NCBI GenBank assembly: GCA_013140635.1
Contig: JABFSM010000063.1
Location: 1-60,920 of the forward strand
Direction: 5' to 3'
DNA: 60,920 nucleotides
From: Gemmatimonadales bacterium
GTDB taxonomy: Bacteria > Gemmatimonadota > Gemmatimonadetes > Gemmatimonadales > GWC2-71-9
Part shown: positions 7,854-35,592 of the stretch, in pieces
How the letters are laid out: each line of letters opens with the position of its first letter
How positions within the stretch are numbered: position 1 is the stretch's first letter
Translations under genes and position numbers: made by a program
Notes under the pieces: generated by a model
Databases searched by the model: none
Seen by the model: the letters and a program-made list of their open reading frames with translations, nothing else
Told to the model about the DNA's origin: nothing

Positions 7854-7981
7854 GGTGCTCCTCTTCTGAATCGAGATGATGCCCGGACTTAGCAGTTAGG
7901 CGGCGGCGGCTCGAATCCTACCACAGCTCGCTTTTCTCTGCTCGCCCTTTGATTTTCGGGTTTTCTTCGGTATTCTGGAAG

Positions 7982-10900
7982 ATGTTCACCCACCTCCACG
8001 CTCACTCCTGGTTCTCGATGGGCCAGGGTCCCTCCAGTCCCGAGGCCCTGCTGGCCGCGCTCCCGGAAGAAGATTCCGATGGGACCCCGACCCTCGCCTG
8101 CACCGACACCAACGGGGTCTACGGCGCGGTCGAGTTCCAGCGCGCCGCCGAAGAGGTAGGGGTCCGCCCCATTTTGGGGGCGCACCTCGTGCTCGGGGAT
8201 GAAGCCTGTGTGGCGCTCGCCATGGACGAGCGCGGGTGGGGCGCGATCTGCCGAGCCATTACGGCCATTCATTGGCGCCAGAGCGCGCCGCTGTCCGGCC
8301 TCGCGGCGCTGCTGGCGGCGGACCGCAACGGAGCGCTGATCCTTTCCTCTTCTCCCGTTTTTCTCGATCGGCTCGTCCGCCTCTCCGGCCCGGAGGAGGT
8401 CTACGCCGAGCTCACCCCCGGCCCCGCCCGTCACGCGGTGCTGGCCGCGGCTGCACGGTTAGGTATCCCCCCGGTCGTCACCAACGCGGCGATGTTCGCC
8501 GCTCCCGGCGACTGGGAGCGCCACCGGCTCCTCCGCGCCATCAGCGGCAACACCACACTCTCCGCGCTGCCGGCGGAGTCGGTGTCGTCCCGCGAGGCTT
8601 GGCTCAAGCCCCGTCGAGAGCTCGCGCGCCATTTTCCCGACGTGCCCGAGGCGCTGGACCGCGCGGGAGAGCTGGCGGAGCGGTGCCGGTATCGGATTCC
8701 CATCGGCCGCCGGACCGTGGCCCCGCGTCATGCGGAGGACGCCTTCCGGCGGCTTCGGGAGCTGGCGTTCGAGGGCGCCCGGCAACGGTACGACTACACC
8801 ATTCCCTATGCGGTGCGCCTTCGGCTGGAGCACGAGCTCGACATCATCGGGAAGAAAGACTTCGCCGACTACTTCCTCGTGGTGCACGAGATCGTCCGGC
8901 ACGCCCGCACTCATTGCGGCCGCGGCTCCGTCGCCCACTCGATCGTGTCCTACTGCCTCGGCATAACGCATGTCGACCCGCTGCCCTCGAACCTGGTCTT
9001 CGAACGATTTCTCAATCCCGATCGCAAAGACCCTCCCGACATCGACCTCGATTTTCCCTGGGACGAACGGGATACGATCCTGCAATGGATTCTTCACACG
9101 AGTTATCCGGCGCCGCGCGCCGCGATGGTCGCCAACTACAACACCTTCAAGCTGCGCGGCGCCCTGCGCGAAGTAGCCAAGGTGCTGGGCCGCCCGCCCG
9201 CCGAAATCCGCGAAGTCACCCGCCGCGTGCCCTGGTTCAGTGAGAGCACCCCGCTCGACCGCCTTCTGGCGGAGCATCCGAATTTCATGGGGCTCGACCT
9301 CCCGGCCGGGTGGATCGAGCTCGCCAGACACGCCGCGCCGCTGATCGGCACGCCGCGGCATCTCTCGCTGCACCCCGGCGGCGTCGTGATCGTTCCCGAT
9401 GCCCTCACCAAGTACGTGCCGATGGAACCGGCCGCCAAACGGCTCGAGGGCACGCCGGACCGCCCCGTGCCGGTCATCCAGTTCGACAAGGACAGCACTG
9501 AAGACGCCGGCCTCGTGAAAATCGACATCCTGGGGAACCGCTCGCTAGCGGTCATTCGCGATGGGATCAGGATGGTACAGGCCAATACGGGCCGCCAGCT
9601 CGACTATACGAGCCAAGAGGCCGGCGCCGACCCCGCAACGCAGGAGCTCTTTCGAACCGGGCGGACGATGGGGGTATTCTACACCGAGTCGCCCGCCTCA
9701 CGGCTCCTCTGCATCAAGAGCCGCACGGCGAAGTTCGAGTTACTTGTACTCAACACCAGCATCATCCGCCCCGCGTCCATTCGATACGTCCGCCTATACC
9801 TGGAACGGCTGCACGGCGCTCCCTGGCAGCCGATCGACTCGAGCCTGACGGCGACTCTCGGCACCACATTCGGCATCATGGTGTATCAGGAGGATGTCGC
9901 CAACGTCTGCGCCGCTTTTGCCGGTATGTCGCTCACCGAGGCGGACGGGGTGCGCAAGGCGCTCTCGAAGAAACGGCCGGTCAAGGAGCTGGCCGCCTAT
10001 CGAAGAGAGTTTTTCGAGGGGGCCGCCCGGCAGGGCCGCAGCACGGCTGTTACGGAGGAGGTATGGAAGATGGTGATGAGCTTTGCCGGCTACAGCTTCT
10101 GCAAAGGCCACTCCTGCTCCTATATCCAAGTGGCGCAGCAGTCGGCCTATCTCCGGGCGCATTATCCGGCGGAGTTTTTCGCGGCGGTCCTGGCCAACGG
10201 CGGCGGCTTCTATGCGCCGTTTGCCTATGTGGCCGAAGCGCGCCGGGCGGGCGTGACCGTCCGGCCCCCCGACGTCAATCTGAGCGAGATGAACACCGGC
10301 GGACGGGGCGCCGAGATCCGGCTCGGCTTTCAGTTCATCAAGGGGCTCTCCGCCGGCGCGCAGGCCCGGATCCTTGCCGCGCGGTCGGAACGGCCCTTCG
10401 AGAACCTGGCCGACCTGCGCGCCCGCGCCGAGCTCCGGCCCGACGACCTCCGCCTGCTGATCAAGGTCGGCGCCCTGGACGGCATTGCCCGCGGCGCCAC
10501 CCGTCCGATGATGCTCTGGGAGCTGGACCGGCACGCCGGCGTGTCTCGGCAGCGCGCGCATGGACCGGAGCTGCTCGCCAACCCGCCGGGGAGCCGCACG
10601 CCGCCGCTTCCCGAATACACCGCCGAGCGGCGCCGAGACGAAGAGCTCGACCTGCTCGACGTCAGCACCGAGCGGCATCCGATGAGCGTCCATGACGCGG
10701 CGACCCGCCGGCTGCGGACGGTATCCGCCACCGACCTTCACCGCTATGCGGGGCAGTATGTGCTCTGTGCCGGCATGCTCACCACCGCCAAGCCGGTGCA
10801 TACCGCCAAGGACGAGCCGATGCAGTTCGCCACCTTCGACGATGGCCATGGACTCATCGAAACGGTGCTCTTTCCCGACATCCATGCCCGGCGGGCGCAC

Positions 10901-11083
10901 GTTCTCTTCGACCGAGGGCCCTTTCTATTTCGGGGCAAAGTGGAAGAGGATTTTGGTGCGATAACGGTGACGGTGACGGAGCTCGACCGGTTGGAGCGGG
11001 TGCTCAGGAGAAGGGAAGAGGGAGGAGGGAAGAGGGAAGCGGGTATGCCTTCTCTTCCCTCTTCCCTCCTCCCTCTTCCCTAG
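7982..11083 (+). CDS. dnaE2: Error-prone DNA polymerase DnaE2 (Pol III alpha paralog)
   Basis: PHP domain starts MFTHLHAHSWFS. Pol III alpha core motifs follow: GRGSVAHSIVSYCLGITHVDP, PDIDLDF, VKIDILGNRSL, FCKGHSCSYIQVAQQSAYLRAHYP. The OB-fold region is present, and length and tail are DnaE2-like. Start moved to ATG 7982. The last ~24 codons run through a hairpin. Confidence 0.9.
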   Translation: MFTHLHAHSWFSMGQGPSSPEALLAALPEEDSDGTPTLACTDTNGVYGAVEFQRAAEEVGVRPILGAHLVLGDEACVALAMDERGWGAICRAITAIHWRQSAPLSGLAALLAADRNGALILSSSPVFLDRLVRLSGPEEVYAELTPGPARHAVLAAAARLGIPPVVTNAAMFAAPGDWERHRLLRAISGNTTLSALPAESVSSREAWLKPRRELARHFPDVPEALDRAGELAERCRYRIPIGRRTVAPRHAEDAFRRLRELAFEGARQRYDYTIPYAVRLRLEHELDIIGKKDFADYFLVVHEIVRHARTHCGRGSVAHSIVSYCLGITHVDPLPSNLVFERFLNPDRKDPPDIDLDFPWDERDTILQWILHTSYPAPRAAMVANYNTFKLRGALREVAKVLGRPPAEIREVTRRVPWFSESTPLDRLLAEHPNFMGLDLPAGWIELARHAAPLIGTPRHLSLHPGGVVIVPDALTKYVPMEPAAKRLEGTPDRPVPVIQFDKDSTEDAGLVKIDILGNRSLAVIRDGIRMVQANTGRQLDYTSQEAGADPATQELFRTGRTMGVFYTESPASRLLCIKSRTAKFELLVLNTSIIRPASIRYVRLYLERLHGAPWQPIDSSLTATLGTTFGIMVYQEDVANVCAAFAGMSLTEADGVRKALSKKRPVKELAAYRREFFEGAARQGRSTAVTEEVWKMVMSFAGYSFCKGHSCSYIQVAQQSAYLRAHYPAEFFAAVLANGGGFYAPFAYVAEARRAGVTVRPPDVNLSEMNTGGRGAEIRLGFQFIKGLSAGAQARILAARSERPFENLADLRARAELRPDDLRLLIKVGALDGIARGATRPMMLWELDRHAGVSRQRAHGPELLANPPGSRTPPLPEYTAERRRDEELDLLDVSTERHPMSVHDAATRRLRTVSATDLHRYAGQYVLCAGMLTTAKPVHTAKDEPMQFATFDDGHGLIETVLFPDIHARRAHVLFDRGPFLFRGKVEEDFGAITVTVTELDRLERVLRRREEGGGKREAGMPSLPSSLLPLP
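11012..11081. terminator. 28-bp homopurine/homopyrimidine hairpin between convergent dnaE2 and the protease gene (candidate bidirectional terminator)
   Basis: Left arm 11013-11039 (gggaagagggaggagggaagagggaag) is the perfect reverse complement of 11054-11080. One extra A-T pair extends the stem to 11012/11081. 14-nt loop and no T-tract. Confidence 0.55.
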
Positions 11084-11087
11084 CCGG

Positions 11088-14000
11088 TCACTCCTGCCGC
11101 CTCCCGATCTGCTCCAGCAACGTCTTGACCGCCTGATCGAGCTGCGAATCGCGCCCGCTGTAGAATTCGCCCACCGGCCGGACCACCGTCACATCGACCG
11201 GGCGAGGATGCAACTCCATGTCTTTGCCGTCGCTTCCCCGGATTCGAATGAACGGCATCCGCATGACGGTGCCGTCGAGCAGCCCCAGGTTCGACGTGAA
11301 GATGATCCATCCCGCCGTCGGCTCGCCGACCACCGTCCCGAGGCCCAGCGTGCGGTACCCCTCGGTGAAATCCTCGGCATCCGAGAGTGAATGCTGATTG
11401 GTCACCAGCACCGTCGGACGCTCGAAGGCGCGCTGGCCGAGCTGGCTGCGCGCCGGCGCCACGACCCCGCCCCGCGGCTGCATCGACAGATAGGGCCGCC
11501 GCGTGAAGATGTCGAGCGCGTACGCGTTGACGAAACCGCCGTTGTTGTTGCGAATGTCGATGACGACCCCGTCTCGGCTCTGGTTCTCGGTGTCGAGGTC
11601 GACGACGAGCTGGTCGAGCGACCCTTGGCCCATATCGAGAATGTGCACGTAGCCAAGGCGCCCATTGCTGGCGCGCGCCACGTACGCGCGCCGGTCCTCG
11701 ACCCAGCTGCGGTACAGGAGCCCTTTCTCGGTGCCGGTGTTCACCGGCCGGACAATCACGTCGCGGCCCGAATCAGGCGCCGCACCGGCCACGCGAAGGG
11801 TGACTCGGCGGCCGACCTTTCCGTTCAGGAGCTGGTCCAGGTTCGCGCCGGGCCCAGTGCGCTCGCCGTCGACCGCCAAGAGCCGCTCGCCGGCCCGAAT
11901 CCCGGCGATCGCCGCCGGCCCGAGGGGGATGACCTCGAACACGGTCAGCTGGCCGCTCGCCTCGAGGGCCGCGGGGTCGAAGCGGAGCCCGAGCCGGCCG
12001 GTAGGCGCCGCGGCGGGCCCTCCGCCGGGTGGATTGATACCGGAATGCGAGGCGTTGAGCTCCCCCACCATGAAACCGAGAATCCGCCGCAGCTCGTCAG
12101 GTGAGCGCGCCCCCATCACGCGGGGTTCGTAGGTGCGCCGCACCGCCTCCCAGTCGGCGCCGTGGTACTCTGGATCGTAGAAATTGTCGCGCTGCAGAGT
12201 CCACGCCTGCCGAAACACCTCCATCTTCTCGCGATCGAAGTCGACCTCCATCTCCGCGGTCACCGCGATAGGGCGAGTCTGTCGCGTATCGAGGTGGTAG
12301 GCCTGGAGCCGCCCCCCCTCCATGTAGTAGACCTCTTTGCTGTCAGGCGAAAAGGTCACGCTGGTCTTGAACGCCGACGTCGAGGTGAGCTGCCGGGCGA
12401 CCAACTCTTCGGTGGAGAGCTCATCGAGCGGCCAGATGTAGAGATTCGACCGGCCTTCGGCCCCTCCCACCATCACCACCCACTTGCCGTCGGGGCTCAC
12501 AACCTGGTCGTTCACGTCCACGCCGACGGGAATGAGCGTCAGGCGCCTGCGCACGTCGTTGAATTCGAACGCGGGCGTGGCGGACACCGGCGCGGGAGCC
12601 GAATCTCGCGGGGGCGCCGCCGCGGGCGGCGTCTGCGGCGCCGGCCGTCCCGGCCGCGGAGCCTCTTGGGTGAAGAGGTCGCGGAAGAGATCCTCGCGGA
12701 ACCGCGGTGTCCGGGGCACGAGATCGACCCGGGCAAGCGCCGCCGACTCGGTGCGCTGATTGGTGTTCACCAGCAGATAGGCGCCCGACGGAGCCCACGA
12801 TACGGCGCCCGCGTTCGAGTTGGCGAGGAACGTCACCTGCTTGGAGTCGCCGCCGGCCGCCGGCACCAGGAAGACGCTGGTGAACCCGCGCACGCCGGTG
12901 CTGAGGTAGGCGAGCCACTTACCGTCGGGAGACCACGCTACGCTTCGCGGGCTGGTGAACGGTTCGCGGTCCATCACCCCGGTGGCGAGCAGACGCTCCT
13001 GTCGCGAGGCCATGTCGAGCACCCGGAGCTCGCGGCCGTCGCGCACGAAGGCGATCTGTTTGCCGTCGGGAGAGAAATGCGGCGTCACGTCATTCTGCGG
13101 CTGATCGGTGAGCCGAGTTTCCGCTCCGGTGGTGAAGTCATAGAGGAAGAGGTTGAGAGCGCCACTCCGGCCCGAGGCGTACGCCAGCCGCCGGCTATCG
13201 GGCGCCCAGCTCATCTGGCCTTCCATGGCGGGGCTCCGCGTCACCCGCGCCGCGTTGCCGCCGTCGCGCGCCGAAACGGCGAAGATTTCACCCCGGACCA
13301 CGAACGCGATCTTCCGCGCGTCGGGGGAGAGCGCCATCTCCTGAAGCTGGCTCGTGGCGGTGATCCGCTCCACCACCGGTTCGCTCCCCGCGCCGCGCAG
13401 AGTGATCGGCACCGGCGCCGCACGCCCACTCGCCGTTTCGAGGGTCCACACCCCGAAATCCCGCTCGAACGCGATCCGCTTTCCGTCGCGTGTGATGCTG
13501 GGCCAGAGCACTCGACCGTCGCGGAAGGTCGTCACTTGGCGGGCGGTGCCGCCGGCCGCCGCAGGACGGGTCCAGAGATTCTGGGGCCCCCCGCGATCGG
13601 AGATGTACCAGAGCGCCTGACCGTCGGCGGTCCACATCGGCCACCCTTCGCGAGCGCCCCCGTCGGTCACCGGCTGATACGACGGCGGCGCGCCGGGACG
13701 TACGATCAGAATCTGGCTCTGATCGATGTGGCTGCTTCCCTTCCGCCACCATTGGCCCGAGCTGCTGCCCCGGGCGGTGATCGCGACGTTCCGCCCGTCC
13801 GGCGAGGGCATCGCCCAATACTCGCTGGCGTATCGGTCCGCGCTCACCGCCATCGGCGTTCCCCCGCTGGCCCGCACTTTGTACACGTCGTTCATCCCCG
13901 CGATGTCGCGGCTCGAGCTCGAGTAGTAGAGCCACTGCCCATCGGGCGACCAGCTGTCGAGTTGCTCCGCCCCGTCCTCGAAGGTCAGGCGGCGGAGAGC

Positions 14001-15688: not shown

Positions 15689-17119
15689 ATGGATCAGAGC
15701 CCTGCCCCAAGTGCCGCGACCGGCGCAACCTGGCGCCAGCGGAACTGGGACGAGCTTCTCGCGAACATCGAATCCAAGCAGGTCATTCCGATCGTCGGCC
15801 CCGATCTTCTGGTCGTCGAACGGGAGGGCCGTGTGCTGCCCCTCGACCGCTACGTCGCGCTCGAACTGGCGGCGCGCCTGGAGCTCGACCCCGCCGCGAT
15901 CGACGGCGGGGCAACGCCGTCGCTGAACGACGTGATGTGCGCCTACCTCCGCAACATCCCGCCGGGCGAGACCCGCGCCACGCCGTACACCTTCGTGCCG
16001 GATATCCTGAAGCAGGCGCGGTTTGCACCGCCTCGGCCGTTGCAGCAGTTGGCGGAGATCACCGACTTCACCCTCTTCGTCACCACCACCTTCGACGACC
16101 TCCTGGCCCAGGCGCTCGATCAGACGCGCTACGGCGGGGCCAAGGGCACCACGAGCATCGCCTATCGGTACAACCGGCGGGAGGATCTTCCCGGCACACT
16201 CGACGAGCTGGCCCGCCAGAATCGGGCGACGGTCTTCCACCTCCTTGGCCGGCACGGAACGTCACCCAACTACGTGCTGACCGAGGAGGACCTCCTCGAA
16301 TTCGTCTGCGCCCTCCAGTCGGGCGAGTACCGGCCCACCGAGCTCTTGGCGGAACTGGCCACTCATCACTTGCTGATCCTCGGGGAGAACTTCTCCGACT
16401 GGCTCGCCCGGCTCTTCATTCGAACCACCCGGGGCCGTAAGCTCTCCACCTACCAGGATTCGACTGAGGTCGTGGCGGACAGCCGCACCCCGGGCGAGCG
16501 CGGCCTGGTGGCGTTCCTCACGCACTTCAGCGGGCACACCCGCATCTATCCGGGCGGGGCGGTCGAGTTCGTGGAGGAGCTGCACCGCCGCTGGCGGGAG
16601 CGCAACCCCGAAGCCGCGGCGCCGGCGGCGTCCACCGTGCCGTTCGTGGCGCCGCCCCGGGAGATCCCGCGTGACGCAATCTTCTTGAGCTATGCCCGGG
16701 AAGACCTCGAGGCGGTCATCCGTCTCAAGGCCATCCTCGATCGGGCCGGCCTGCCCCTCTGGTTCGACATGGACCAGATCATGGGAGGCCAGGACTGGGA
16801 CCGCCGCATCAACGACAACATCAAGAGCTGCATCCTCTTCCTGCCGGTGATGTCCCGTACCACCCAGCGGCTCACCCGCAAGCAGTACTTCCGCTCCGAG
16901 TGGAACGCGGCGCTCCATCAGAAGAGCCGTTATGCGCCGGGCGAAGTGTTCATCGTGCCGCTGGTGGTGGACGACCTCGAGCGGCGGGCGGCGGAGGAAG
17001 AATTCCCCGGCACCCACGTCGAACGGGCGCCGGGCGGCGACATCGAGGCGCGGGTGGTCGACCACCTCTGGGAGGTCTACACCCGGGCGACCGGGACCGC
17101 CCGAGGGACCCCGCGATGA
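15689..17119 (+). CDS. SIR2-like domain + TIR domain fusion protein (predicted NAD+-processing effector)
   Basis: N-terminal half matches the SIR2_2-type pattern: VIPIVGPDLL; FVTTTFDDLLAQAL; VFHLLGRHG..NYVLTEEDLLEF; LLILGENFSDWLARLF. C-terminal part matches the TIR_2 pattern: AIFLSYAREDLEAVIRLKAILDRAGLPLWFDMDQIMGGQDWDRRINDNIKSCILFLPVMS...YFRSEWNAAL. The stop overlaps the next start (ATGA at 17116-17119). Confidence 0.8.
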   Translation: MDQSPAPSAATGATWRQRNWDELLANIESKQVIPIVGPDLLVVEREGRVLPLDRYVALELAARLELDPAAIDGGATPSLNDVMCAYLRNIPPGETRATPYTFVPDILKQARFAPPRPLQQLAEITDFTLFVTTTFDDLLAQALDQTRYGGAKGTTSIAYRYNRREDLPGTLDELARQNRATVFHLLGRHGTSPNYVLTEEDLLEFVCALQSGEYRPTELLAELATHHLLILGENFSDWLARLFIRTTRGRKLSTYQDSTEVVADSRTPGERGLVAFLTHFSGHTRIYPGGAVEFVEELHRRWRERNPEAAAPAASTVPFVAPPREIPRDAIFLSYAREDLEAVIRLKAILDRAGLPLWFDMDQIMGGQDWDRRINDNIKSCILFLPVMSRTTQRLTRKQYFRSEWNAALHQKSRYAPGEVFIVPLVVDDLERRAAEEEFPGTHVERAPGGDIEARVVDHLWEVYTRATGTARGTPR

Positions 17120-20100
17120 CCGGGGGACCGGTCCGGACCGGGGAGCACGAGGCCTCGGTGGTGGACCAGGAGAATCCCTGGCCCGGGCTCGCGCCGTTTG
17201 CCGAAGAGCATGCGCGGTTTTTCCACGGCCGCCAGCGCGAAGTCGAAGAGCTGCTCCGGCGGGTGCGTCTCAATGCACTCACCGTGCTCTACGGCCAGTC
17301 GGGGCTCGGAAAGACCTCGCTCGTTCAGGCGGCCCTCTATCCGAAGCTCCGCGCCGCCGGACTCCTCCCGGTCCCGATCAGGATCACCTACACGGCGGCC
17401 ACCGACTCGCCCCGCGAGCAGATCTGGCGCTGCTGCACCGCCGCTTTCACGGCCGAAGGGATCACCCCTCCGCCCTTGCCGGAGGGTGAATCGCTGTGGG
17501 AGTACTTTCACCGCCATACGGTCCGCTTCGTCACCAAGAGCGGCCACCCCGTCGTTCCGGTCTTGGCGTTCGACCAATTCGAGGAACTGTTCACCATCGG
17601 GAGCGAACGCTCCGCGGACCGTTCGTTCGCCCGCGACTTGGTGGACGAACTGGCGGCGCTGGTCGAGAACCGGCCGTCGGAGGTGGTGGAAGGCCGCTTC
17701 GAGCGCGACCCGAAACTCGTCGCCCAATTCGATTTCGACCGCCAGGACTACCGGGTCCTGATCAGCCTGCGCGAAGACTACCTCGCGCACCTGCATTGGC
17801 TCTCGCGCAAGATGCCTTCGGTCACCCAGAACAACATGCGCCTAACGCCCCTGGACGGCGTGCGGGCGCTCGACGCGGTGATCAAGCCGGGGGGGCGGCT
17901 GGTGACGCGGGAGGCCGCCGCCGCGATCGTACGCTACGTGGCCGGCACCAGCGACGAACGCCGGGAACAGGGGCTCGCCGGGCTTCCCGACCCCGATACC
18001 GGAGACTTCCGCTCCCACAACGATGCGACCTCGATCGAGTCGCTGACCGTCGACCCGTCCTTGCTGAGCCTCTTCTGCAGCGAGCTCAACAACAAGCGGA
18101 AAGACGAGGCCCTCCCCGCGATCACCCCCGAGTTGGTCGAGTCGAATCGCGAAGACATCCTGCGAAACTTCTACGCGCGCGCCCTGGCCAAGTTGCCTGA
18201 AGGCGTACGGCATTTCATCGAAGAGAGTCTCCTCACCGAGTCGGGGTTCCGGGAAACGCTGGCTCTCGACACCGCCCAGTCGCAACTTCGGCGGCGGGGC
18301 GTCGATCCCGCGGTGCTGACCACCCTCGTCAATCGCCGCCTCCTCCACCTCGAGGAACGGGGGGGAATGAAGCGGGTGGAGCTCACGCACGATGTGCTGG
18401 CGCCGGTGGTGCGGCAGAGCCGAACCGAACGGCAGCAACGGGAGCGGGTGGCCGCCGAGCAGGGCAGGCGGGAGCTGGAGCTCGAAGAAGCCAGGCGCCT
18501 GGCCCAGGCGGCCCAGGAAGAGGCGGAGCGGCGGCAGGCGGAGCAAGCGCGGGAGCTCGCGCACGTCCAGCGGCAGCGCAAGCAGGTCCTGTTCTTCGGC
18601 ATCGCGATGGCGGTGGTGGCGGGCTTCGCCATCTACCAGACTATTCAGGCCGGCCGCCAGAGCGCCGAAGCGGAACGACAGCGGCAAGAAGCGGTGAGTG
18701 GCCGGCAGGAGGCCGATCGCGAACGCGATAGGGCGCGGCTTCTTGCCGACTCGGTGAGCCTCCAAAACGGCCTGCTCGCGACCAACCAGACCGCGCTCGA
18801 GCGGCAGACCGTCAGCGCCGAAACGGCCCGCGACCAGGCCACCCTGGCGCAACGCGCGGCCGACAGCACGCGCCGGATCGTTACCGAGCAGCTCGCGGAC
18901 ATGTGCCGCTACAGCAAGGAGCTCGGCTCCAAACTGGCCGACACCGCCAGCGCCAACCAGGCCACGGAGCGGCTCTACGCGGCGCTCGTGACCACGTCGG
19001 ATACTTACATCAAGGAAATGCGCCGAAAGGATCCCGGCGCGCTCTGCCCGCTGCAGCTCGAGACCAGGTTCGAGACCATCGGCGCCCGGCAGCTATACAA
19101 TCAGGCCCGCGCCCTCCCCGCCCGCGATTCGATCGCCGCGCTGGCGTTGGCCCGGGAACATGCGATGGATGGCGTCCGGTCGCTGGCGGAGCTCGCGGCG
19201 CGGCCCGATAGCGAGTCGCGGGAGATCGCCGTCGCGGCACACCTCGAATACGTCTCGCTCCTCCCGTTATTGGTCGCGACCGATTCGGCGCGGCTCTATC
19301 GCACCTACCTGGATACCGCCGAGCGGGTGGCGCGGCACGGTCTGGCGCTCCTCGAGGAGCGCGACCCCGCCCGGGACCGGATGGCCTACTATCGCCGCGC
19401 GCGGATGCACATGCTGCGCGCCGCGGTGTTCCGTCCGGAAACCGGAGGCGAGGACTCGGCCCGGGCGTCGCTCGGGCGCGGCCTAGCGGTCGTCGCGGAG
19501 GGGATGCGGCACCCGAACCAGAACAAGGAATTCCTTTACTACGCCGCCGGCGAATTGCATTCTCGGCTGGCGCGGCAGGATAGCGCCTCGGGACGGGGGC
19601 GCCAGGCCATCGCGCACGCGCGCGAACTGCTCGACGCGGCGGTGGGGCAGTTCCGCGAAGTGCGCTCCGGGTTCAACTACGACTACCTGGGCTGGTCCTA
19701 CGAGCGCCTCGGCAATCTGCTCCGGGCCGAGGGGGACAGCGCCGGCGCCCGAGTGGCTTACGACAGCTCGGAGGTGGTGCGCGCCCGGCTCGCCGGCGAG
19801 GAGCGGCCAAGCCCCGCCACCCCGGACGATGCGGAGAGCGCGCGCCTCACGCTCTATCAGTTCCGCACCCGGCTGATCGACGCGGAGCGGCGGGCCGGCG
19901 GTGACCCCGCCCGCATTCTCACCAGAAGCCAGGGGCTGGTGACGACCGCCGAACGGATGGCGCTGCCCACCACCGCCACGACCCGGCAGCGCAACCGCCT
20001 GGGCGTCGCGTACAATGTGCTGAGCCGGGCCCTCCTCGCCACCGGAGATTACTACGGTTACCTGGCGCAGCAGCGCCGCCGTATCGAGATCGATTCCGCG

Positions 20101-20628
20101 TTCGTCGTCCAGTCGCGGCACCACCCCGATACCCTCGAGATCCTCGCCAGGGCATATGAAGAGGTGGCGACGGTGTCGGACTCGTTGGCCCAGCGCGCCG
20201 ACGCGGTGCGCTTTCAGCAGCTCGGGGCGAACCGATGGCAGCAGGTGGTCGATACCCTCACCCTGCGCCGCGGCGTCTCGGCGGCCGCGCTGCGCGCGGC
20301 CAGGCGCTCCTTGGCGGGCGCCCATGGCAACCTGAGCTGGTATCATCTGTTCAACCGGGAGCCGGCGCTCGCCGTGAGCCGCGCGCGCGACGGGATCGCG
20401 GCCGATTCGACTCAGACCTTCATCTACACCAATCTCGTTTCCGGGTTGCTGCTGAGCGGGCGGGCCGATTCCGCGGAGGTCTATTTCCGCCGCATGCGCG
20501 ACGTCGTCTACGGCACGAGGCCGCGGCGCTTCGGCGACCAGGTCATCATCGATCTGGGCGACTTGGCCAAGGCCGGCGTGGCCAAACAGGCCGATGTCGA
20601 CCGGGTGCGGGGTTGGGCCCGGCCCTGA
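17116..20628 (+). CDS. STAND-class P-loop NTPase with central TM helix and C-terminal helical-repeat (TPR-like) region
   Basis: NPWPGLAPFAEEHARFFHGRQREVEELL precedes Walker A GQSGLGKTS (17293-17319). Walker B-like VPVLAFDQFEELF and ISLREDYL follow. Next come a charged coiled coil, the hydrophobic helix VLFFGIAMAVVAGFAIYQTI, and ~650 aa of helical repeats. Start set at ATG 17116: the 16900-17115 extension overlaps the TIR coding region and is Arg/Gly-rich. Confidence 0.75.
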   Translation: MTGGPVRTGEHEASVVDQENPWPGLAPFAEEHARFFHGRQREVEELLRRVRLNALTVLYGQSGLGKTSLVQAALYPKLRAAGLLPVPIRITYTAATDSPREQIWRCCTAAFTAEGITPPPLPEGESLWEYFHRHTVRFVTKSGHPVVPVLAFDQFEELFTIGSERSADRSFARDLVDELAALVENRPSEVVEGRFERDPKLVAQFDFDRQDYRVLISLREDYLAHLHWLSRKMPSVTQNNMRLTPLDGVRALDAVIKPGGRLVTREAAAAIVRYVAGTSDERREQGLAGLPDPDTGDFRSHNDATSIESLTVDPSLLSLFCSELNNKRKDEALPAITPELVESNREDILRNFYARALAKLPEGVRHFIEESLLTESGFRETLALDTAQSQLRRRGVDPAVLTTLVNRRLLHLEERGGMKRVELTHDVLAPVVRQSRTERQQRERVAAEQGRRELELEEARRLAQAAQEEAERRQAEQARELAHVQRQRKQVLFFGIAMAVVAGFAIYQTIQAGRQSAEAERQRQEAVSGRQEADRERDRARLLADSVSLQNGLLATNQTALERQTVSAETARDQATLAQRAADSTRRIVTEQLADMCRYSKELGSKLADTASANQATERLYAALVTTSDTYIKEMRRKDPGALCPLQLETRFETIGARQLYNQARALPARDSIAALALAREHAMDGVRSLAELAARPDSESREIAVAAHLEYVSLLPLLVATDSARLYRTYLDTAERVARHGLALLEERDPARDRMAYYRRARMHMLRAAVFRPETGGEDSARASLGRGLAVVAEGMRHPNQNKEFLYYAAGELHSRLARQDSASGRGRQAIAHARELLDAAVGQFREVRSGFNYDYLGWSYERLGNLLRAEGDSAGARVAYDSSEVVRARLAGEERPSPATPDDAESARLTLYQFRTRLIDAERRAGGDPARILTRSQGLVTTAERMALPTTATTRQRNRLGVAYNVLSRALLATGDYYGYLAQQRRRIEIDSAFVVQSRHHPDTLEILARAYEEVATVSDSLAQRADAVRFQQLGANRWQQVVDTLTLRRGVSAAALRAARRSLAGAHGNLSWYHLFNREPALAVSRARDGIAADSTQTFIYTNLVSGLLLSGRADSAEVYFRRMRDVVYGTRPRRFGDQVIIDLGDLAKAGVAKQADVDRVRGWARP

Positions 20629-29365: not shown

Positions 29366-30211
29366 GCCTGCCTCGATTTGATGGACACCCTACCCGCCCT
29401 GATATTCATGGCACGGAGGTATCCGATGCCGACGTTTCGCCGAGCATTTAGTCCCGAGTTGAAGCTGGAAGCCGTGCGCCAAGTGATTGAAGGTGGTCGC
29501 TCGGCATCGCGCCGAGTACCTGCTAACCCTGATGTGCCGCGTGCTGGGCATCGCGCGCTCGGCGTTCTACGTCTGGCAACATCGGGGCCCCAGTGCGCAC
29601 GCGCAGACGGATGCGGCCCTGCGGTTGCGGATCGCCCCTCCCCACGAACGGAGCGATCGCAATTACGGCAGCCCGCGGATCGTGCGCGACCTGCGTGACG
29701 AGCAGTGCTTCGTCAGTCGGCGACGCGTCGCCCGCTTGATGGGTGAGCTCGGGCTCGATGACACGCCGCAGCCGCGCTTCGTCGTGACAACGCGGCCCGA
29801 CGCGGCCCTGCCGGTCGCGCCCAATCTCCTGGACCGGCACTTCGCCGTCGACGCACCCAACCGCGTCTGGGCCGCGGACGTGACATACTGTCGCACCGGC
29901 GAGGGCTGGCTGTACCTCGCGGTGGTGCTCGACCTCTGCTCGCGGTGCGTCGTCGGTCATGAGTCGTCGCGGGGATTGTTAGGACAATGCGGTGGTGGAG
30001 AGTTTCTTCGCGACGCTCAAGCGGGAATATGTACGGCAACATCGCTGGCCCACGCCGGCGAGTCTGCTGCTCGCGCTGGCGCGCTATCTCGATGGGTGGT
30101 ATAATCGCGAGCGGCGGCACTCGTCGCTCGGCTACGTCAGTCCGATCGTGTACGAACAGCAGCTCACCCAAGCTGTCTGACCCCGGTGTCCATTAATTCG
30201 AGGCAAGACCA
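29363..30211 (+). mobile_element. Internally deleted IS3-family element (849 bp) with intact inverted repeats and a 3-bp GGC target duplication
   Basis: Inner IR: 29370-29389 vs the reverse complement of 30185-30204 matches 18/20. Termini are TG...CA. GGC flanks both ends (29360-29362 and 30212-30214). The coding remnants are: orfA start MPTFRRAFSPELKLEAVRQVIEGG, joined directly to the orfB HTH (LTLMCRVLGIARSAFYVWQ); the rve start (PNRVWAADVTYCRTGEGWLYLAVVLDLCSR), joined to the C-terminus (DNAVVESFFATLKREYV...RERRHSSLGYVSP). At least two internal deletions. Confidence 0.75.
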
Positions 30212-30281
30212 GGCCGAAGCTACTCTGGCGGATTAGGCCACTCAAGTGCAATGCCATAGTGAAACCGCCAGGGCAGGTTCA

Positions 30282-30506
30282 CTAGGTTTTACTGCAAGAG
30301 ACCGAGCATTCATAGAAACCGGTTCCACATAGGTTGGGACTTGTGCAATGGTAGTAACTGGACCCCGAAATGGTGCATTTGCATCCGGCCTTACTTTGGG
30401 CTTCGACCTCCGCAGGCCGACCAGTTAGCGCCAAGATTCCTCCCAAGAACACGCCCAGCACACCATTGACAATCAGCAAGCGTCGAAATGAAAGGATCTG
30501 TGTCAT
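30282..30506 (-). CDS. Six-Cys leader peptide paralog A (74 aa)
   Basis: MTQILSFRRLLIVNGVLGVFLGGILALTGRPAEVEAQSKAGCKCTISGSSYYHCTSPNLCGTGFYECSVSCSKT. GGAGGG SD sits 9 nt upstream. Paralogous to B and C with identical Cys positions. Confidence 0.7.
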   Translation of the reverse strand: MTQILSFRRLLIVNGVLGVFLGGILALTGRPAEVEAQSKAGCKCTISGSSYYHCTSPNLCGTGFYECSVSCSKT

Positions 30507-30945
30507 TAAGTTCTGCCCTCCGCTTCATGAACTGGTGACCGATAGGATATCAGAACACCCATACCTAAGATACGCGCGCCGTTTCGTCAAGAGCCTTGTC
30601 AAGGCCCCGTGAGGTAAGACAAATGGCACCCGTGTGAAACTGAGGCAAAAGTGCCTCTACGGTCGGACAGGGGAGGCCCGCAAGGGCTAGTTTTCTCACG
30701 CACCTAGCGGCCCAAGACTGAGGAGGGCCGCCCTCACATCAAGCTTGAGTCTACCCCAGCAACTCCAACTGGGGCTACTTCTTAAGCCAGCGCAATCCCG
30801 CAATGGTGCTACTGGGCTCTGACATCGTAATGACATGGCTCGCTCTTCAGGTCTATTGACAGGCCATCGATAATATGTTAGGTAGGTTATGTACTATGTA
30901 CAACGTCCAAAGAATCAGCCGCCCATCACTCAAAGGGGGAGGACA

Positions 30946-31167
30946 ATGCCACAGGTTATGACGTTTCGGCGGCTAGCAATTGCCAACGGCGTACTGGGGG
31001 TTCTCCTGGGAGCAATCTTGGCACTCACTGGTCACCCGGCCGAGGCCGAGGCTCAAGGTAGCGGCGGCTGCAAGTGTACAATTTCGGGCAAGGGCGCCTA
31101 CGCATGCACAGTACCAAACGGCTGCTTCGCGGGCGCCTATAACTGCTCGGTGTCGTGCAAGACTTAG
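30946..31167 (+). CDS. Six-Cys leader peptide paralog B (73 aa)
   Basis: GGGGGAGG SD, then MPQVMTFRRLAIANGVLGVLLGAILALTGHPAEAEAQGSGGCKCTISGKGAYACTVPNGCFAGAYNCSVSCKT. Start moved from 30889. Confidence 0.7.
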   Translation: MPQVMTFRRLAIANGVLGVLLGAILALTGHPAEAEAQGSGGCKCTISGKGAYACTVPNGCFAGAYNCSVSCKT

Positions 31168-31380
31168 GGAGTGTGAAGGTTATGGCACCTGCCAAGACCC
31201 CGGTTTGGCATATGGGCCTAACTCGGTAGCACGGGGAGATTCGTACTGCTCTCTCGCGCCACGCCAGTACGCATCTCAGAGGGTTGTTGAGCAGTGCACA
31301 GCCGACCGGTGCGAATGTGTTGGTGGCTCAATTGCAAGAGGCTCGCTTGTGACCGTATCCACCTGAAGGAGGGTAAGACA

Positions 31381-31602
31381 ATGCGGCAAGTGCTTTCATT
31401 CAAGCGATTGGTTATTGCTAACGGCGCGCTCGGCGTACTTCTCGGAGGGATTTTGGCTTTGACCGGTCGCCCTGCGGAAGTCGAGGCCCAGGGTGGGGGG
31501 GGGTGCAAATGTACTATAACGGGCGCCAGCAAGTACTCCTGCGGCTCACCGAGTGCGTGCGCTGCCGGGTATTACCAGTGTTCAGTAACGTGTAAGACCT
31601 GA
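31381..31602 (+). CDS. Six-Cys leader peptide paralog C (73 aa)
   Basis: AAGGAGGG SD, then MRQVLSFKRLVIANGALGVLLGGILALTGRPAEVEAQGGGGCKCTITGASKYSCGSPSACAAGYYQCSVTCKT. Start moved from 31294. Confidence 0.7.
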   Translation: MRQVLSFKRLVIANGALGVLLGGILALTGRPAEVEAQGGGGCKCTITGASKYSCGSPSACAAGYYQCSVTCKT

Positions 31603-31681
31603 TGTGGCATTGGGAATCGTGGTGAGGTGACTTGAGGCGGCTGGCTGCAGTTCGATAGCTTTCGAAGAACGCGAGGCTCAA

Positions 31682-32836
31682 GTGCTTACTCATTCTCGCT
31701 CCATGCATCTTGCGGAGGGTCGAGGCTTTCAGTGGCCAACTCCATTGTCATCTCCCATACGACGAGGACCGCACCTCTCGCTGCGCGGAGCCCTGATAGT
31801 TGGTTCGTGCCTTGTACTTGGTGTTCAGCTATCTGCTCAAGCGAGCGTTCGCCTGGTGCCAACCGCAAGAACATCGTCAGACAAACTCGGCATGCTGACG
31901 GAGGTCACTGACGTCACGAGTGACAACCGAGGGGTCATCATACTGCTGGATGGACATTTGTCGCGAATCGTTGCCACTGACCACCAGCTCAAGCCACTTG
32001 CATACTTCGGACGACGAGGATCAGGCCCAGGGGAGTTCCGAGAAGCAGTCTCAATCCGGATGTTGTCACGTGCGCGGTTTGCCGTGCTTGATAGGGCCCT
32101 TCGCCGAGTAACGATTGTGGTAGTGAAGGACGGAGGTCGGTCACTTGTTCTTCAGCGAACAATTCCCCTCGGGGTAGCATCGGAGGCGATGTGTATCCTT
32201 CCCAGCGACGATATTCTGATCTATGGGTATGGTGCAGGCAAACGCTTGCACCTCTTTGGCATGGATAGCGGCCAGTTGCTGCGATCATTCGGGCCGTCGG
32301 ATTCCACCTCTTCACCCATGGCCCGGGACCTCGTTGCCACTGGCAGCATCTCGTGCGATGCCTCGCGTGATCAAGTTCTTGTCGCAAGTCGATTTCTCCC
32401 AGTGACTGAAGTGTTTCAAATCACTACGGGGCAGCGTGTCTGGGTGGATACGCTGCCGTTCTTTCGGCCCTTACGCGTGGAGGACGAGGGCACATCCGTT
32501 TCTCTCGTGAGCGGCCGCAGTGGCTATAGTCGAGTCTCGGGTGTGTTCGGGGTTGCGGGCTACCGCATATTTCAGACAAGGTATGACGCAAGGCAGGACC
32601 GGGCCACCATCGACACCATAGTGACTCATGTATATGCCATTCGTGAACGAGCCTGGATGCCACCAAATTTCCATGTACCACTCATTTTCCGTCTCGCTGA
32701 CACACTGGCATTATCAGTAGACGATGATGAGCGTATGGAATTGACGATTCAGATTAACAGAGTCACGCTCGCGAGCGGTGCGGGCGCAAGGGTCCTCCCT
32801 CGGAAGCATGAAACACCGCTCCGCAAACCGGACTAA
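31682..32836 (+). CDS. 6-bladed beta-propeller family protein (island copy)
   Basis: Hydrophobic N-terminal segment LRGALIVGSCLVLGVQLSAQA. The blade motif FGRRGSGPGEFREAVSI is shared with the chromosomal paralogs (GEGPGEF, GGGPGEY). Start may be GTG 31682 or ATG 31703. Confidence 0.6.
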   Translation: MLTHSRSMHLAEGRGFQWPTPLSSPIRRGPHLSLRGALIVGSCLVLGVQLSAQASVRLVPTARTSSDKLGMLTEVTDVTSDNRGVIILLDGHLSRIVATDHQLKPLAYFGRRGSGPGEFREAVSIRMLSRARFAVLDRALRRVTIVVVKDGGRSLVLQRTIPLGVASEAMCILPSDDILIYGYGAGKRLHLFGMDSGQLLRSFGPSDSTSSPMARDLVATGSISCDASRDQVLVASRFLPVTEVFQITTGQRVWVDTLPFFRPLRVEDEGTSVSLVSGRSGYSRVSGVFGVAGYRIFQTRYDARQDRATIDTIVTHVYAIRERAWMPPNFHVPLIFRLADTLALSVDDDERMELTIQINRVTLASGAGARVLPRKHETPLRKPD

Positions 32837-32850
32837 GGAGAACCTCTGTT

Positions 32851-33498: not shown

Positions 33499-33642
33499 TG
33501 TCATGTGATATTTGCCACCATGCTGATGACACGCGGATCTGTCGGCACATCACGTGAATTCCATCACCCTCGCGATCGTGGCCAAGCCGACCGACCAACG
33601 CCTTCCGCCCAAAGGGAGCAGGCCGCTTCTCGGTACTAGGCA

Positions 33643-35091: not shown

Positions 35092-35103
35092 CGGTTCAAG
35101 CTC

Positions 35104-35499: not shown

Positions 35500-35592
35500 T
35501 CAGAAGTGGCTCCGCAATTCTGAACAGGTCGGATAGTTGGATTGGCGGGCGTCACGGACGATCTTTCGTCCCTCGATTCTGGAGCCCCTCCG

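What the first reader, a model, noticed from the sequence alone, without database searches (positions are those of the whole stretch)
15689..20628. Two-gene SIR2-TIR / membrane-spanning STAND NTPase module: candidate undescribed NAD+-targeting immune system
Two co-directional genes are translationally coupled: ATG 17116 overlaps the TGA at 17117-17119. Gene 1 fuses two domains that act as NADase or signal-generating effectors in Thoeris, DSR, Avs and bacterial NLR-like systems. The SIR2_2-like domain shows VIPIVGPDLL, TTTFDDLL, LLGRHG and YVLTEEDL. The TIR_2-like domain shows IFLSYAREDLEAV...WFD...FRSEWNAAL. Gene 2 is a 1170-aa STAND-type NTPase. It has NPWPGLAPFAEEHARFFHGRQRE before Walker A GQSGLGKTS, then Walker B LAFDQFEELF, followed by a coiled coil, one TM helix and ~650 aa of helical repeats that could act as a sensor. 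In named systems I know of, SIR2 or TIR is fused to the STAND protein (Avs/bNACHT), or TIR and SIR2 are on separate proteins (Thoeris). A SIR2+TIR double-effector polypeptide paired in trans with a TM-containing STAND is not an arrangement I can place. The flanking genes (PQQ dehydrogenase, DUF72) are housekeeping-like, so this is a solitary insertion, not part of an obvious defence island.
Basis: partly seen in the sequence, partly recalled or inferred. Interest (0 to 1): 0.85.

Follow-up and report, generated by a model that had tools for sequence, protein, structure and literature searches.

The report
Membrane STAND sensor with SIR2-TIR partner
This is a real, widespread and apparently untested two-gene module in which a membrane-spanning STAND ATPase, whose fast-evolving sensor probably faces outside the cell, is always paired with a small SIR2-like/TIR protein predicted to cleave NAD+; it is a new variant of a known kind of bacterial immune-type system, not a new kind.

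Summary
Gene 1 (15689-17119, 476 aa) has SIR2_2 and TIR_2 domains. Gene 2 (17116-20628, 1170 aa) has an nSTAND1 NTPase, one transmembrane helix and a TPR-like superhelix. The two genes overlap by ATGA.

The pair is an obligate module. In 77 of 78 related metagenome loci with room downstream, the nSTAND1 gene follows directly, usually with the same 4-nt overlap. The SIR2-TIR family comprises about 747 clusters at 50% identity. No third gene is conserved.

The partner protein stays constant while the STAND C-terminus varies (TPR-like, WD40, FGE). The transmembrane helix is present in 117 of 120 homologs, with an N-in charge bias.

The "double effector" reading is doubtful. The TIR glutamate is invariant (139/139). 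The SIR2-like domain lacks the canonical Asn and GAG motifs and loses its His in about 30% of clusters.

The STAND clade, its TM-plus-sensor architectures and upstream TIR-type effector genes are already catalogued in supplementary tables of Kaur et al. 2021. This SIR2-TIR pairing is not named there, in PADLOC v2 or in the searched literature.

Most likely mechanism (inferred, not shown): an outside-facing sensor drives STAND assembly, which activates TIR cleavage of NAD+. Verdict: new variant of a known kind, moderately high interest.

The parts
15689..17119 (+). Gene 1: 476-aa SIR2-like + TIR protein, the constant partner and predicted effector
   Evidence: ORF. Pfam SIR2_2 and TIR_2 above their cutoffs. 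AF2 pLDDT 89.3, pTM 0.83. More than 550 homologs of the same length and architecture. About 747 clusters at 50% identity with E<=1e-30.
15737..16618 (+). SIR2-like Rossmann domain (aa 17-310). Departs from the canonical motifs: G37-P38-D39, T134 (16088-16090) in place of the TTNYD Asn. H184 (16238-16240) is retained in this protein.
   Evidence: Foldseek to ThsA 6lhx (E 2.8e-9), DSR2, KomBC and Avs5. No sequence-level PDB hit. Column counts. Strand positions E32-36, E129-132 and E181-184 in the model place these residues where the SIR2 motifs lie.
16673..17092 (+). TIR domain (aa 329-468) with predicted catalytic Glu E404 (16898-16900)
   Evidence: Pfam TIR_2 at aa 331-429. PDB profile hits to PdTIR, BtpA, AbTir, SPARTA TIR-APAZ and SARM1. 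The SPARTA alignment puts E404 on chain residue 111, which is native residue 77 if Met35 is the native start. E404 is 86/86 and 139/139.
17116..17119 (+). ATGA start/stop overlap (translational coupling)
   Evidence: Sequence. The same 4-nt overlap occurs in 47 of 64 related loci.
17116..20628 (+). Gene 2: 1170-aa membrane-spanning nSTAND1 NTPase, the predicted sensor/switch
   Evidence: ORF. Pfam nSTAND1. 3098 homologs at E<=0.001 among the candidates scored. AF2 mean pLDDT 81.
17176..18396 (+). Cytoplasmic NTPase module (aa 21-427): conserved N-terminal PWPGL...FxGR motif, Walker A 17293-17319 (K66), Walker B 17563-17592, helical and winged-helix parts
   Evidence: Pfam aa 21-260. Invariant columns in A4. 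Secondary structure. 55-65% identity among close homologs.
18397..18567 (+). Long charged helix (aa 428-484) leading to the membrane
   Evidence: AF2 helix H428-484.
18583..18654 (+). Single transmembrane helix (aa 490-513)
   Evidence: Kyte-Doolittle peak. An equivalent helix is present in 117 of 120 homologs. K+R count is 5.7 on the N-side against 3.7 on the C-side, with N>C in 95 of 117.
18655..20625 (+). Predicted extracytoplasmic part: stalk helices (aa 514-611) plus a TPR-like alpha-superhelix (aa 615-1170). It evolves fast and carries an invariant Cys pair, C597 and C644.
   Evidence: AF2. Foldseek matches to TPR superhelices. 25-32% identity where the NTPase is 55-65%. About 32% against 61-74% for everything else in the syntenic ortholog. 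Invariant Cys residues.

Best explanation
This is a two-gene, NLR-like conflict (probably anti-phage or anti-invader) module of a Gemmatimonadales bacterium.

Gene 2 is a type-II membrane protein. Its nSTAND1 NTPase faces the cytoplasm. A single TM helix carries a rapidly diversifying TPR-like domain to the outside.

Proposed sequence of events (all inferred): binding of a cue at the envelope is transmitted through the stalk helices. The NTPase exchanges nucleotide and oligomerises, as STAND proteins do. The oligomer then recruits or clusters the co-translated SIR2-like/TIR protein. Clustering lets the TIR domains form active sites that cleave NAD+, either depleting it (growth arrest or death of the attacked cell) or producing an ADP-ribose-derived signal.

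The SIR2-like domain is more likely a scaffold or regulatory nucleotide-binding domain than a second obligate NADase. In this particular protein its His is retained, so residual activity is not excluded.

Shown here: domain identities, the obligate pairing, coupling, TM conservation and charge bias, sensor hypervariability, and the conservation pattern of catalytic residues.

Inferred: topology, direction of signalling, physical contact between the two proteins, NAD+ cleavage, and the immune role.
For: - Domains and folds.
- Obligate pairing: 77/78 loci. Also found with WD40 and FGE sensor variants, in Proteobacteria and Planctomycetota MAGs, and at 32-35% identity in cultured Paraburkholderia caribensis MBA4.
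- No third conserved gene.
- 4-nt overlap in 47/64 loci.
- Constant effector with a variable C-terminus, the usual sign of a sensor: TPR, WD40, FGE-sulfatase, PDZ or unknown helical domains on a 44-65% identical NTPase.
- In the syntenic ortholog the flanks are 69-74% identical, gene 1 64%, the NTPase 61% and the outer domain about 32%.
- TM helix in 117/120 homologs, positive-inside bias in 95/117, and an invariant Cys pair in the outer domain.
- Physical-link hints: an nSTAND1 NTPase fused directly to SIR2_2+TIR_2 (P0408). A family member carries a bacterial Death-like adaptor, bDLD3, between the SIR2 and TIR domains (P0365).
- TIR Glu 139/139 against SIR2 His 97/139. E404 aligns with the SPARTA TIR Glu.
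- Presence/absence at one chromosomal site.
- Established knowledge: STAND/Avs/bNACHT proteins oligomerise on ligand binding and activate N-terminal effectors. TIR NADases need self-association. Kaur et al. 2021 interpret nSTAND1 systems as counter-invader systems.
Against:
- There is no recognisable adaptor domain shared by the two proteins, so how they touch is unknown.
- PADLOC v2 has no model for the pair.
- No relative was found on 2.9 million viral contigs. Only one plasmid-collection hit was found, on a 2.5-Mb replicon.
- The window shows no defence island, and the locus is vertically stable with host-like GC3. That would also fit a housekeeping signalling role.
- AF2 confidence is low exactly at the TM segment, and topology rests on hydrophobicity and charge bias only.
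- The equivalence T134 = catalytic Asn rests on the Pfam match and the position after strand E129-132, not on a residue-level structural superposition.
Confidence: 0.5

Rival explanations
1. True double NADase. Both SIR2 and TIR are active NAD+ hydrolases released together by the STAND protein. This gives redundancy against phage inhibitors or NAD+-reconstitution pathways.
For: Both domains pass the Pfam cutoffs. The SIR2 fold matches active NADases: ThsA, DSR2 and Avs5. H184 and D136 are present in this protein and are 84/86 and 86/86 among closer homologs. The divergent motifs are themselves strongly conserved, which argues for function rather than decay.
Against: The Asn of TTNYD is Thr in 84/86 and Asn in only 5/139. 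The GAG loop is G-P/Q/R-D/E. His is replaced by Q, Y, R, N or S in 42/139 representatives and by Met in P. caribensis. No PDB SIR2 is detectable by sequence.
Confidence: 0.2
2. Thoeris-like signalling. On activation the TIR makes a cyclic or linear ADP-ribose signal rather than depleting NAD+. The signal acts on the SIR2-like domain in cis or on separate effectors (SLATT pores, TIR-TPR proteins) encoded nearby or elsewhere.
For: The full-length model's best structural match is ThsA (SIR2+SLOG), with the TIR in the place of SLOG. Verrucomicrobial loci carry SLATT_1 and several TIR_2+TPR genes next to the pair. A 593-aa membrane protein follows the pair in 7 loci. TIR next to SLATT is a described Thoeris configuration.
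Against: Those neighbours are absent from the window and from most loci, and no third gene is conserved. There is no SLOG, Macro or other known signal-binding domain in either protein. The SIR2 His is dispensable in 30% of clusters, so it cannot be the universal executor.
Confidence: 0.15
3. Not immunity. This is a resident transmembrane signalling or regulated-cell-death device that reports an envelope or environmental cue (for example kin or competitor contact, or development) through NAD+ turnover.
For: Stable syntenic chromosomal position, host-like composition, housekeeping flanks. No viral-contig relatives. Kaur et al. link such systems to multicellular or social habits as well as to invaders.
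Against: The extreme divergence of the sensor relative to its neighbours, sensor-domain swapping, presence/absence at the same site and tandem duplication are all typical of arms-race genes. TIR and SIR2 partnered with STAND is an immune signature in the characterised systems.
Confidence: 0.12
4. The hydrophobic segment is not a membrane span. The protein is a cytosolic Avs-like STAND whose TPR domain recognises an intracellular phage protein.
For: AF2 gives low confidence for aa 483-560. TPR sensors of Avs proteins are cytosolic (established knowledge). There is no signal peptide.
Against: A 19-25-residue hydrophobic helix at the same position in 117/120 homologs, whatever the C-terminal domain. 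Positive-inside bias. A conserved Cys pair after it. Kaur et al. independently annotate 'nSTAND1+TM' 412 times.
Confidence: 0.05

Closest known systems
nSTAND1 conflict systems (Kaur, Burroughs, Iyer, Aravind 2021, eLife 10:e70394; Pfam PF20703)
   Same: Same NTPase clade by Pfam. Same overall layout: NTPase, often a TM helix, then a variable TPR, beta-propeller or FGS/FGE sensor. Effectors are NAD+/nucleotide-processing domains, sometimes encoded by a separate upstream gene ('TIR+DrHyd-> nSTAND1...', 'TIR-> nSTAND1+TM...').
   Different: The partner here is a fixed SIR2-like+TIR protein. The string 'SIR2+TIR' does not occur in their tables. There is no shared effector-associated adaptor domain (EAD or bDLD) in the window pair. 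The main text of that paper mentions nSTAND1 only once and does not describe this pair. I could not test whether their 'TIR+DrHyd' genes are the same family under another label.
Avs5 / AVAST type 5 (SIR2-STAND)
   Same: A STAND NTPase controlling a SIR2-fold module. The gene 1 model matches the SIR2 of the Avs5 filament structure 9nc9. Activation by oligomerisation is the working analogy.
   Different: Avs5 is a single cytosolic polypeptide with SIR2 fused at the N-terminus, and has neither TIR nor a TM helix. Here the effector is a separate protein, the STAND is membrane-spanning, and the SIR2-like domain lacks canonical motifs. No PADLOC Avs model hits.
Type I Thoeris (ThsA SIR2-SLOG + ThsB TIR)
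   Same: The same two enzyme folds, SIR2 and TIR, act in one system. ThsA is the best structural match of gene 1 over its whole length.
   Different: In Thoeris, TIR and SIR2 are on different proteins linked by a diffusible signal read by SLOG. Here they are one polypeptide without SLOG, and a STAND protein is the obligatory partner. No ThsA or ThsB model hits gene 1 at E<=1.
TM-containing STAND 'antigen sensors' diversified by DGRs (bioRxiv 10.1101/2023.09.22.558884)
   Same: nSTAND1 or NACHT NTPases with a TM helix and an outward-facing variable ligand-binding domain, sometimes with TIR or peptidase effectors.
   Different: Those sensors are C-type-lectin/FGE folds mutated by a retroelement. 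Here the sensor is a TPR-like superhelix, there is no DGR in the window, and the effector is a separate SIR2-like/TIR protein.
SARM1 (animal TIR NADase with an allosteric NAD+/NMN-binding domain)
   Same: A TIR NADase joined to a second nucleotide-binding domain that is not itself the executor. TIR-level sequence similarity.
   Different: This is an analogy only. The regulatory domain of SARM1 is an ARM repeat, not a SIR2 fold. No homology outside the TIR domain.

Membership tests
nSTAND1 STAND NTPases (PF20703) | Match to the family profile above the curated cutoff | tested here: met
   101.2 bits against a cutoff of 27.1, aa 21-260.
nSTAND1 STAND NTPases (PF20703) | Intact P-loop NTPase motifs (Walker A Lys, Walker B acidic residues) | tested here: met
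   GQSGLGKTS and DQFEE are invariant in 48 homologs.
nSTAND1 conflict systems sensu Kaur et al. 2021 | Variable C-terminal sensor or repeat domain on a conserved NTPase, often after a TM helix | tested here: met
   TPR, WD40, FGE and PDZ variants. TM in 117/120. 'nSTAND1+TM' occurs 412 times in their tables.
nSTAND1 conflict systems sensu Kaur et al. 2021 | Effector coupled in cis, or in trans through a shared effector-associated domain (EAD/bDLD) | tested here: not met
   Neither window protein has an adaptor domain. Only a variant, P0365, carries bDLD3. A trans effector without a shared adaptor does appear in their tables.
SIR2 NADases of defence systems (ThsA, DSR2, Avs5 type) | SIR2 Rossmann fold | tested here: met
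   Pfam SIR2_2. Foldseek probability 1.0 to ThsA, DSR2 and Avs5.
SIR2 NADases of defence systems (ThsA, DSR2, Avs5 type) | Catalytic Asn (TTNYD) and His, both conserved | tested here: not met
   The Asn position is Thr in 84/86 and Asn in only 5/139. His is present in the window protein but is only 97/139 across the family. Residue equivalence is by Pfam match and strand position, not by superposition.
Catalytic TIR domains (NADase or signal-generating) | TIR fold with the conserved catalytic Glu | tested here: met
   TIR_2 at 60 bits. E404 is invariant (139/139) and aligns with the Glu of SPARTA TIR-APAZ.
Catalytic TIR domains (NADase or signal-generating) | NAD+ cleavage activity | not testable with these tools
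   Needs a biochemical assay.
Avs / AVAST | Single polypeptide: N-terminal effector, then STAND, then C-terminal sensor. Match to Avs models. | tested here: not met
   The effector is a separate gene. No PADLOC Avs hit.
Thoeris | Stand-alone TIR ThsB plus an effector with a signal-binding domain (SLOG, Macro and others) | tested here: not met
   No SLOG or Macro domain. No ThsA or ThsB model at E<=1 for gene 1.
Anti-phage defence system (generic) | Protection against phage when expressed | not testable with these tools
   No experiment was possible. Only context and homology are available.

The most novel reading that the evidence does not exclude
This is an outside-in bacterial NLR. An extracytoplasmic, rapidly diversifying TPR receptor detects an invader at the envelope, before or without cytoplasmic entry. 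It switches on a cytosolic TIR NADase whose attached pseudo-SIR2 domain acts as an allosteric NAD-metabolite gate, analogous to SARM1. That would make this a distinct, very widespread family (hundreds of 50%-identity clusters in soil and water bacteria) of surface-sensing immune receptors.
Probability: 0.2. Interest if true: 0.8.

Novelty: new variant of a known kind. Interest (0 to 1): 0.6.

Why it matters
Characterised bacterial STAND/NLR-like defences (Avs, bNACHT) are cytosolic single proteins that recognise phage proteins inside the cell.

This family would place the sensor outside the membrane and the executioner on a separate, co-translated protein. It would therefore make two questions testable. 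Can bacteria trigger NAD+-based immunity from the envelope? How does a STAND oligomer activate an effector in trans without a Death-like adaptor?

The family is large: about 747 clusters at 50% identity across Gemmatimonadota, Verrucomicrobiota, Pseudomonadota and Planctomycetota. It is invisible to PADLOC v2. A cultured carrier exists (Paraburkholderia caribensis MBA4), so it is experimentally tractable.

The conservation pattern (TIR Glu invariant, SIR2 His dispensable) also offers a natural case of a SIR2 fold repurposed as a non-catalytic module.

Tried and rejected
- Rfam scan of the window: nothing.
- Promoter and terminator scan around the pair: nothing above shuffles.
- The genome-contig scan was run with a single protein and gave only 2 loci. 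The alignment-based metagenome scan was far more productive.
- Sequence search of the SIR2 part against the PDB, both as a profile of 10 sequences and as the whole-protein profile, found no SIR2 structure. Residue-level comparison with ThsA/DSR2 therefore could not be made.
- I tried to learn how Kaur et al. labelled this very pair. I searched their supplements for accession numbers of NCBI homologs and for taxa, and for 'SIR2+TIR', 'SIR2+bDLD3' and 'bDLD3+TIR'. There were no matches, so the identity of their 'TIR+DrHyd' genes with this family remains open. Gene 1 does not hit Pfam DUF4062 at E<=1.
- Burroughs et al. 2015 (NAR) could not be retrieved.
- Viral contigs: no relative.
- Taxonomy by exact cluster look-up failed. 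It was obtained from IspH homologs instead (Gemmatimonadales).
- A third conserved gene was considered and rejected. The apparent 33-locus cluster is an antisense shadow ORF of gene 1 in high-GC DNA.
- Recent horizontal acquisition was considered and rejected. GC3 is 0.88 and 0.84, like the host, and the syntenic ortholog shares flanks that are 69-74% identical.


Full report
**1. Observation**

The window comes from a Gemmatimonadales bacterium. Every named top hit of its IspH is "Gemmatimonadales bacterium", at 72-78% identity.

- Gene 1 is 15689-17119 (+, 476 aa). Gene 2 is 17116-20628 (+, 1170 aa). The ATG of gene 2 overlaps the TGA of gene 1 as ATGA.
- Pfam places SIR2_2 (aa 129-247, E 4.8e-11) and TIR_2 (aa 331-429, E 4e-16) in gene 1. 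It places nSTAND1 (aa 21-260, E 1.2e-28) in gene 2. All three are above the curated cutoffs.
- The flanks are GSDH, DUF72, TfoX_N, DinB_2 and a tricorn-like peptidase, so they are housekeeping-like.
- GC3 of the two genes (0.88 and 0.84) equals that of the host.

**2. Structures**

- An AlphaFold2 model of gene 1, built from 86 homologs, has pLDDT 89.3 and pTM 0.83.
- Its best PDB matches are ThsA (6lhx, E 2.8e-9), KomBC, DSR2 and the Avs5 filament. The SIR2 fold is therefore real, even though no SIR2 structure is found by sequence.
- The TIR part matches PdTIR, BtpA, AbTir, SPARTA TIR-APAZ and SARM1 by profile search.
- The gene 2 model (pLDDT 81) shows the following parts:
  - a P-loop NTPase with helical and winged-helix parts, up to about aa 427;
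  - a 57-residue helix;
  - a low-confidence hydrophobic segment;
  - two more long helices;
  - a helical-repeat domain at aa 615-1170.
- Foldseek matches the repeat domain to TPR superhelices such as OGT and SPINDLY. An archaeal STAND-TPR protein (6mfv) is also among the hits.

**3. The pair is an obligate module**

- A metagenome scan with an alignment of gene 1 homologs returned 80 loci. In 77 of the 78 loci with at least 190 bp downstream, an nSTAND1 gene starts immediately after gene 1 on the same strand.
- The single exception, L012, has a small four-helix-bundle gene inserted after gene 1 and then the contig ends.
- Where a start could be assigned, 47 of 64 loci have the same 4-nt overlap.
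- The pairing also holds in several other settings:
  - a Proteobacteria MAG and a Planctomycetota MAG;
  - WD40 and FGE-sulfatase sensor variants;
  - cultured Paraburkholderia caribensis MBA4, at only 32-35% identity.
- No third gene is conserved. The next most frequent flank families occur in 9 loci or fewer, and an apparent 33-locus cluster is an antisense shadow ORF.
- An exhaustive HMMER search finds 747 clusters at 50% identity with E<=1e-30, almost all 450-480 aa long.

**4. Constant partner, variable sensor**

- Homologs of gene 2 share a 44-65% identical N-terminal NTPase. Their C-termini differ: an unassigned helical domain as here, TPR, WD40, FGE-sulfatase, PDZ or DUF2610.
- Among close relatives the NTPase is 55-65% identical, while the C-terminal part is 25-32% identical and often only partly alignable.
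- The pair sits at the same chromosomal site in L089: GSDH | pair | DUF72, TfoX_N, LytB. Identities to the window there are as follows:

| Region | Identity |
|---|---|
| Flanking genes | 69-74% |
| Gene 1 | 64% |
| Gene 2 NTPase | 61% |
| Gene 2 outer domain | about 32% |

- Another Gemmatimonadales genome has an aldo/keto reductase between DUF72 and GSDH instead of the pair (L096). The module is therefore an old but dispensable resident of that site, with a sensor evolving much faster than its surroundings.

**5. Membrane topology**

- A hydrophobic helix of 19-25 residues lies at aa 430-515 in 117 of 120 homologs, whatever the C-terminal domain.
- The 15 residues before it carry more Lys+Arg than the 15 after it in 95 of 117 proteins, and fewer in only 3 (means 5.7 against 3.7).
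- There is no signal peptide and the NTPase needs ATP. I therefore infer an N-in/C-out topology.
- Two Cys residues in the outer part (C597, C644) are invariant in 48 homologs. This is compatible with a periplasmic disulfide but does not prove one.
- Kaur et al. annotate "nSTAND1+TM" 412 times in their supplementary tables.

**6. Which domain is the enzyme?**

- In 86 closer homologs and in 139 representatives of the wider family, the TIR residue E404 is invariant (86/86 and 139/139). The FxSY and WFD motifs are nearly invariant.
- In the printed alignment to SPARTA TIR-APAZ (8j8h_B), E404 pairs with chain residue 111. That is residue 77 if Met35 is the native start. From my own knowledge, E77 is the catalytic Glu of SPARTA.
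- The alignment to PdTIR instead pairs W405 with the Trp four residues upstream of that protein's Glu. It does so at the cost of a 7-residue gap. I prefer the SPARTA register because position 400 is aromatic in 81/86 sequences, which reproduces the aromatic-x3-Glu spacing.
- The SIR2-like domain departs from the canonical motifs:
  - it has G37-P38-[D/E]39 where SIR2 proteins have GAG;
  - it has Thr at position 134 where the TTNYD motif has Asn (T 84/86; across the wider family T 111, S 10, A 8, N 5 of 139);
  - its His184 is kept in 84/86 close homologs but only 97/139 across the family (Q 25, Y 6, others 11), and it is Met in P. caribensis.
- These residues follow strands E32-36, E129-132 and E181-184 of the model, where the SIR2 motifs sit.
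- That His is the catalytic residue of this class is reflected in the DSR2 H171A structures. The role of the Asn is from my own knowledge of ThsA N112 and DSR2 N133.
- Conclusion: the TIR is the obligate catalytic centre. The SIR2-like domain is probably a scaffold or regulatory nucleotide-binding domain in much of the family. Activity in the window protein, which keeps the His, is not excluded.

**7. Hints of physical coupling**

- P0408 (locus L094) is an nSTAND1 NTPase fused directly to SIR2_2+TIR_2, within a tandem of modules.
- P0365 (locus L093) carries a bacterial Death-like domain (bDLD3) between SIR2 and TIR, and is followed, again with a 4-nt overlap, by an nSTAND1 gene.
- bDLD3 is the adaptor that Kaur et al. 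found on nSTAND1/NACHT-FGS proteins.
- The window pair has no such adaptor.

**8. Mechanism**

Best-supported model (confidence about 0.5):

1. The outer TPR-like domain binds a cue at the envelope.
2. The NTPase oligomerises.
3. The co-translated SIR2-like/TIR protein is recruited or clustered.
4. The TIR domains cleave NAD+, causing depletion or producing a signal.

Every step after the domain assignments is inference, by analogy with Avs, bNACHT, TIR-NLR and SARM1.

Rivals, detailed in the Rival explanations section: a true double NADase; Thoeris-like signalling to SLATT or TIR-TPR neighbours, which occur in Verrucomicrobia but not in the window; a non-immune signalling role; and a cytosolic protein with a false TM helix.

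**9. Comparison with the known**

- The NTPase is a member of nSTAND1 (Kaur et al. 2021, PMC8195603).
- That paper's supplementary tables already list TM-containing nSTAND1 proteins with TPR, beta-propeller or FGS sensors. They also list separate upstream effector genes: "TIR+DrHyd-> nSTAND1+BetaPropeller" and "TIR-> nSTAND1+TM+TM+TM+TM".
- The main text names nSTAND1 once.
- "SIR2+TIR" does not occur in the tables. I could not determine whether "TIR+DrHyd" is this family under another label.
- PADLOC-DB v2 gives only TIR-domain hits for gene 1 and nothing meaningful for gene 2.
- No paper in the searchable library contains "SIR2-TIR" or "TIR-SIR2". The recent systematic TIR survey discarded Avs TIRs and does not mention this pair in the passages retrieved.
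- The pair fails the defining features of Avs (single polypeptide) and of Thoeris (separate TIR, signal-binding effector).

**10. Verdict**

This is a real, very widespread, unnamed and untested two-gene subtype of nSTAND1 conflict systems. I rate it a new variant of a known kind.

- The claim of an unplaceable arrangement is too strong.
- "Double effector" is probably wrong for much of the family.
- Interest is 0.6.

Noticed in passing
window 29700-35930: A low-GC island (GC 0.55-0.58 against about 0.67; GC3 0.51-0.63). It has seven ORFs of 128-482 aa that hit nothing in Pfam, PADLOC or PHROGs, apart from a weak CxxCxxCC match in 33643-35091. Probably horizontally acquired orphan genes.
   Followed up: partly
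L091/L092 11492-11863; L012 about 2290-2600: A PF05635 ('23S_rRNA_IVP', four-helix-bundle) gene is inserted between the SIR2-TIR gene and the nSTAND1 gene in some loci. L089 also has one about 4 kb downstream of the pair. This fold family includes DGR accessory proteins, but no reverse transcriptase was seen nearby.
   Followed up: no
L090 5960-21249; L091/L092 5493-19946: In Verrucomicrobia (Lacunisphaera/Opitutus-like) the pair is embedded among several 800-1100-aa TIR_2+TPR proteins, a SLATT_1 protein and a TPR-S protein, forming a TIR-rich island.
   Followed up: partly
L094 282-5403: Tandem modules: SIR2-TIR (505 aa), then an nSTAND1 NTPase fused to SIR2_2+TIR_2 (P0408, 1006 aa), then another nSTAND1 gene. 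Each junction has a 4-nt overlap.
   Followed up: partly
L093 1883-4422: A family member with a bacterial Death-like domain (bDLD3) inserted between the SIR2 and TIR domains (P0365). It is followed by an nSTAND1 gene that has no bDLD3 at its N-terminus.
   Followed up: partly
L095 (Paraburkholderia caribensis MBA4, NZ_CP012748.1 about 378-381 kb), locus 7980-11368: A cultured carrier of a distant pair (32-35% identity) with a 4-nt overlap. Its nSTAND1 protein is only 660 aa, with a TM helix at aa 431-453 and a short outer domain. The SIR2 His is Met while the TIR Glu is kept. The record has no annotation at this place in the PLSDB table.
   Followed up: partly
L001 12534-14315 and 6 other loci: A 593-aa protein with C-terminal hydrophobic helices and no Pfam or PADLOC hit follows the nSTAND1 gene in 7 loci. 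It could be an accessory membrane effector.
   Followed up: partly
window 20594-20628 and L089 15252-15285: The longest DUF72 ORF overlaps the end of the nSTAND1 gene by 34-35 nt, both in the window and in the syntenic ortholog. Either the DUF72 start lies further downstream or the genes are co-transcribed.
   Followed up: no
L086 2660-11650: One TM-nSTAND1 homolog (P0165, TPR type, on a 4.4-Mb contig) lacks the SIR2-TIR partner. It lies among TPR/DUF2610 genes, and DUF2610 is also fused to many of the 1700-1980-aa homologs.
   Followed up: no
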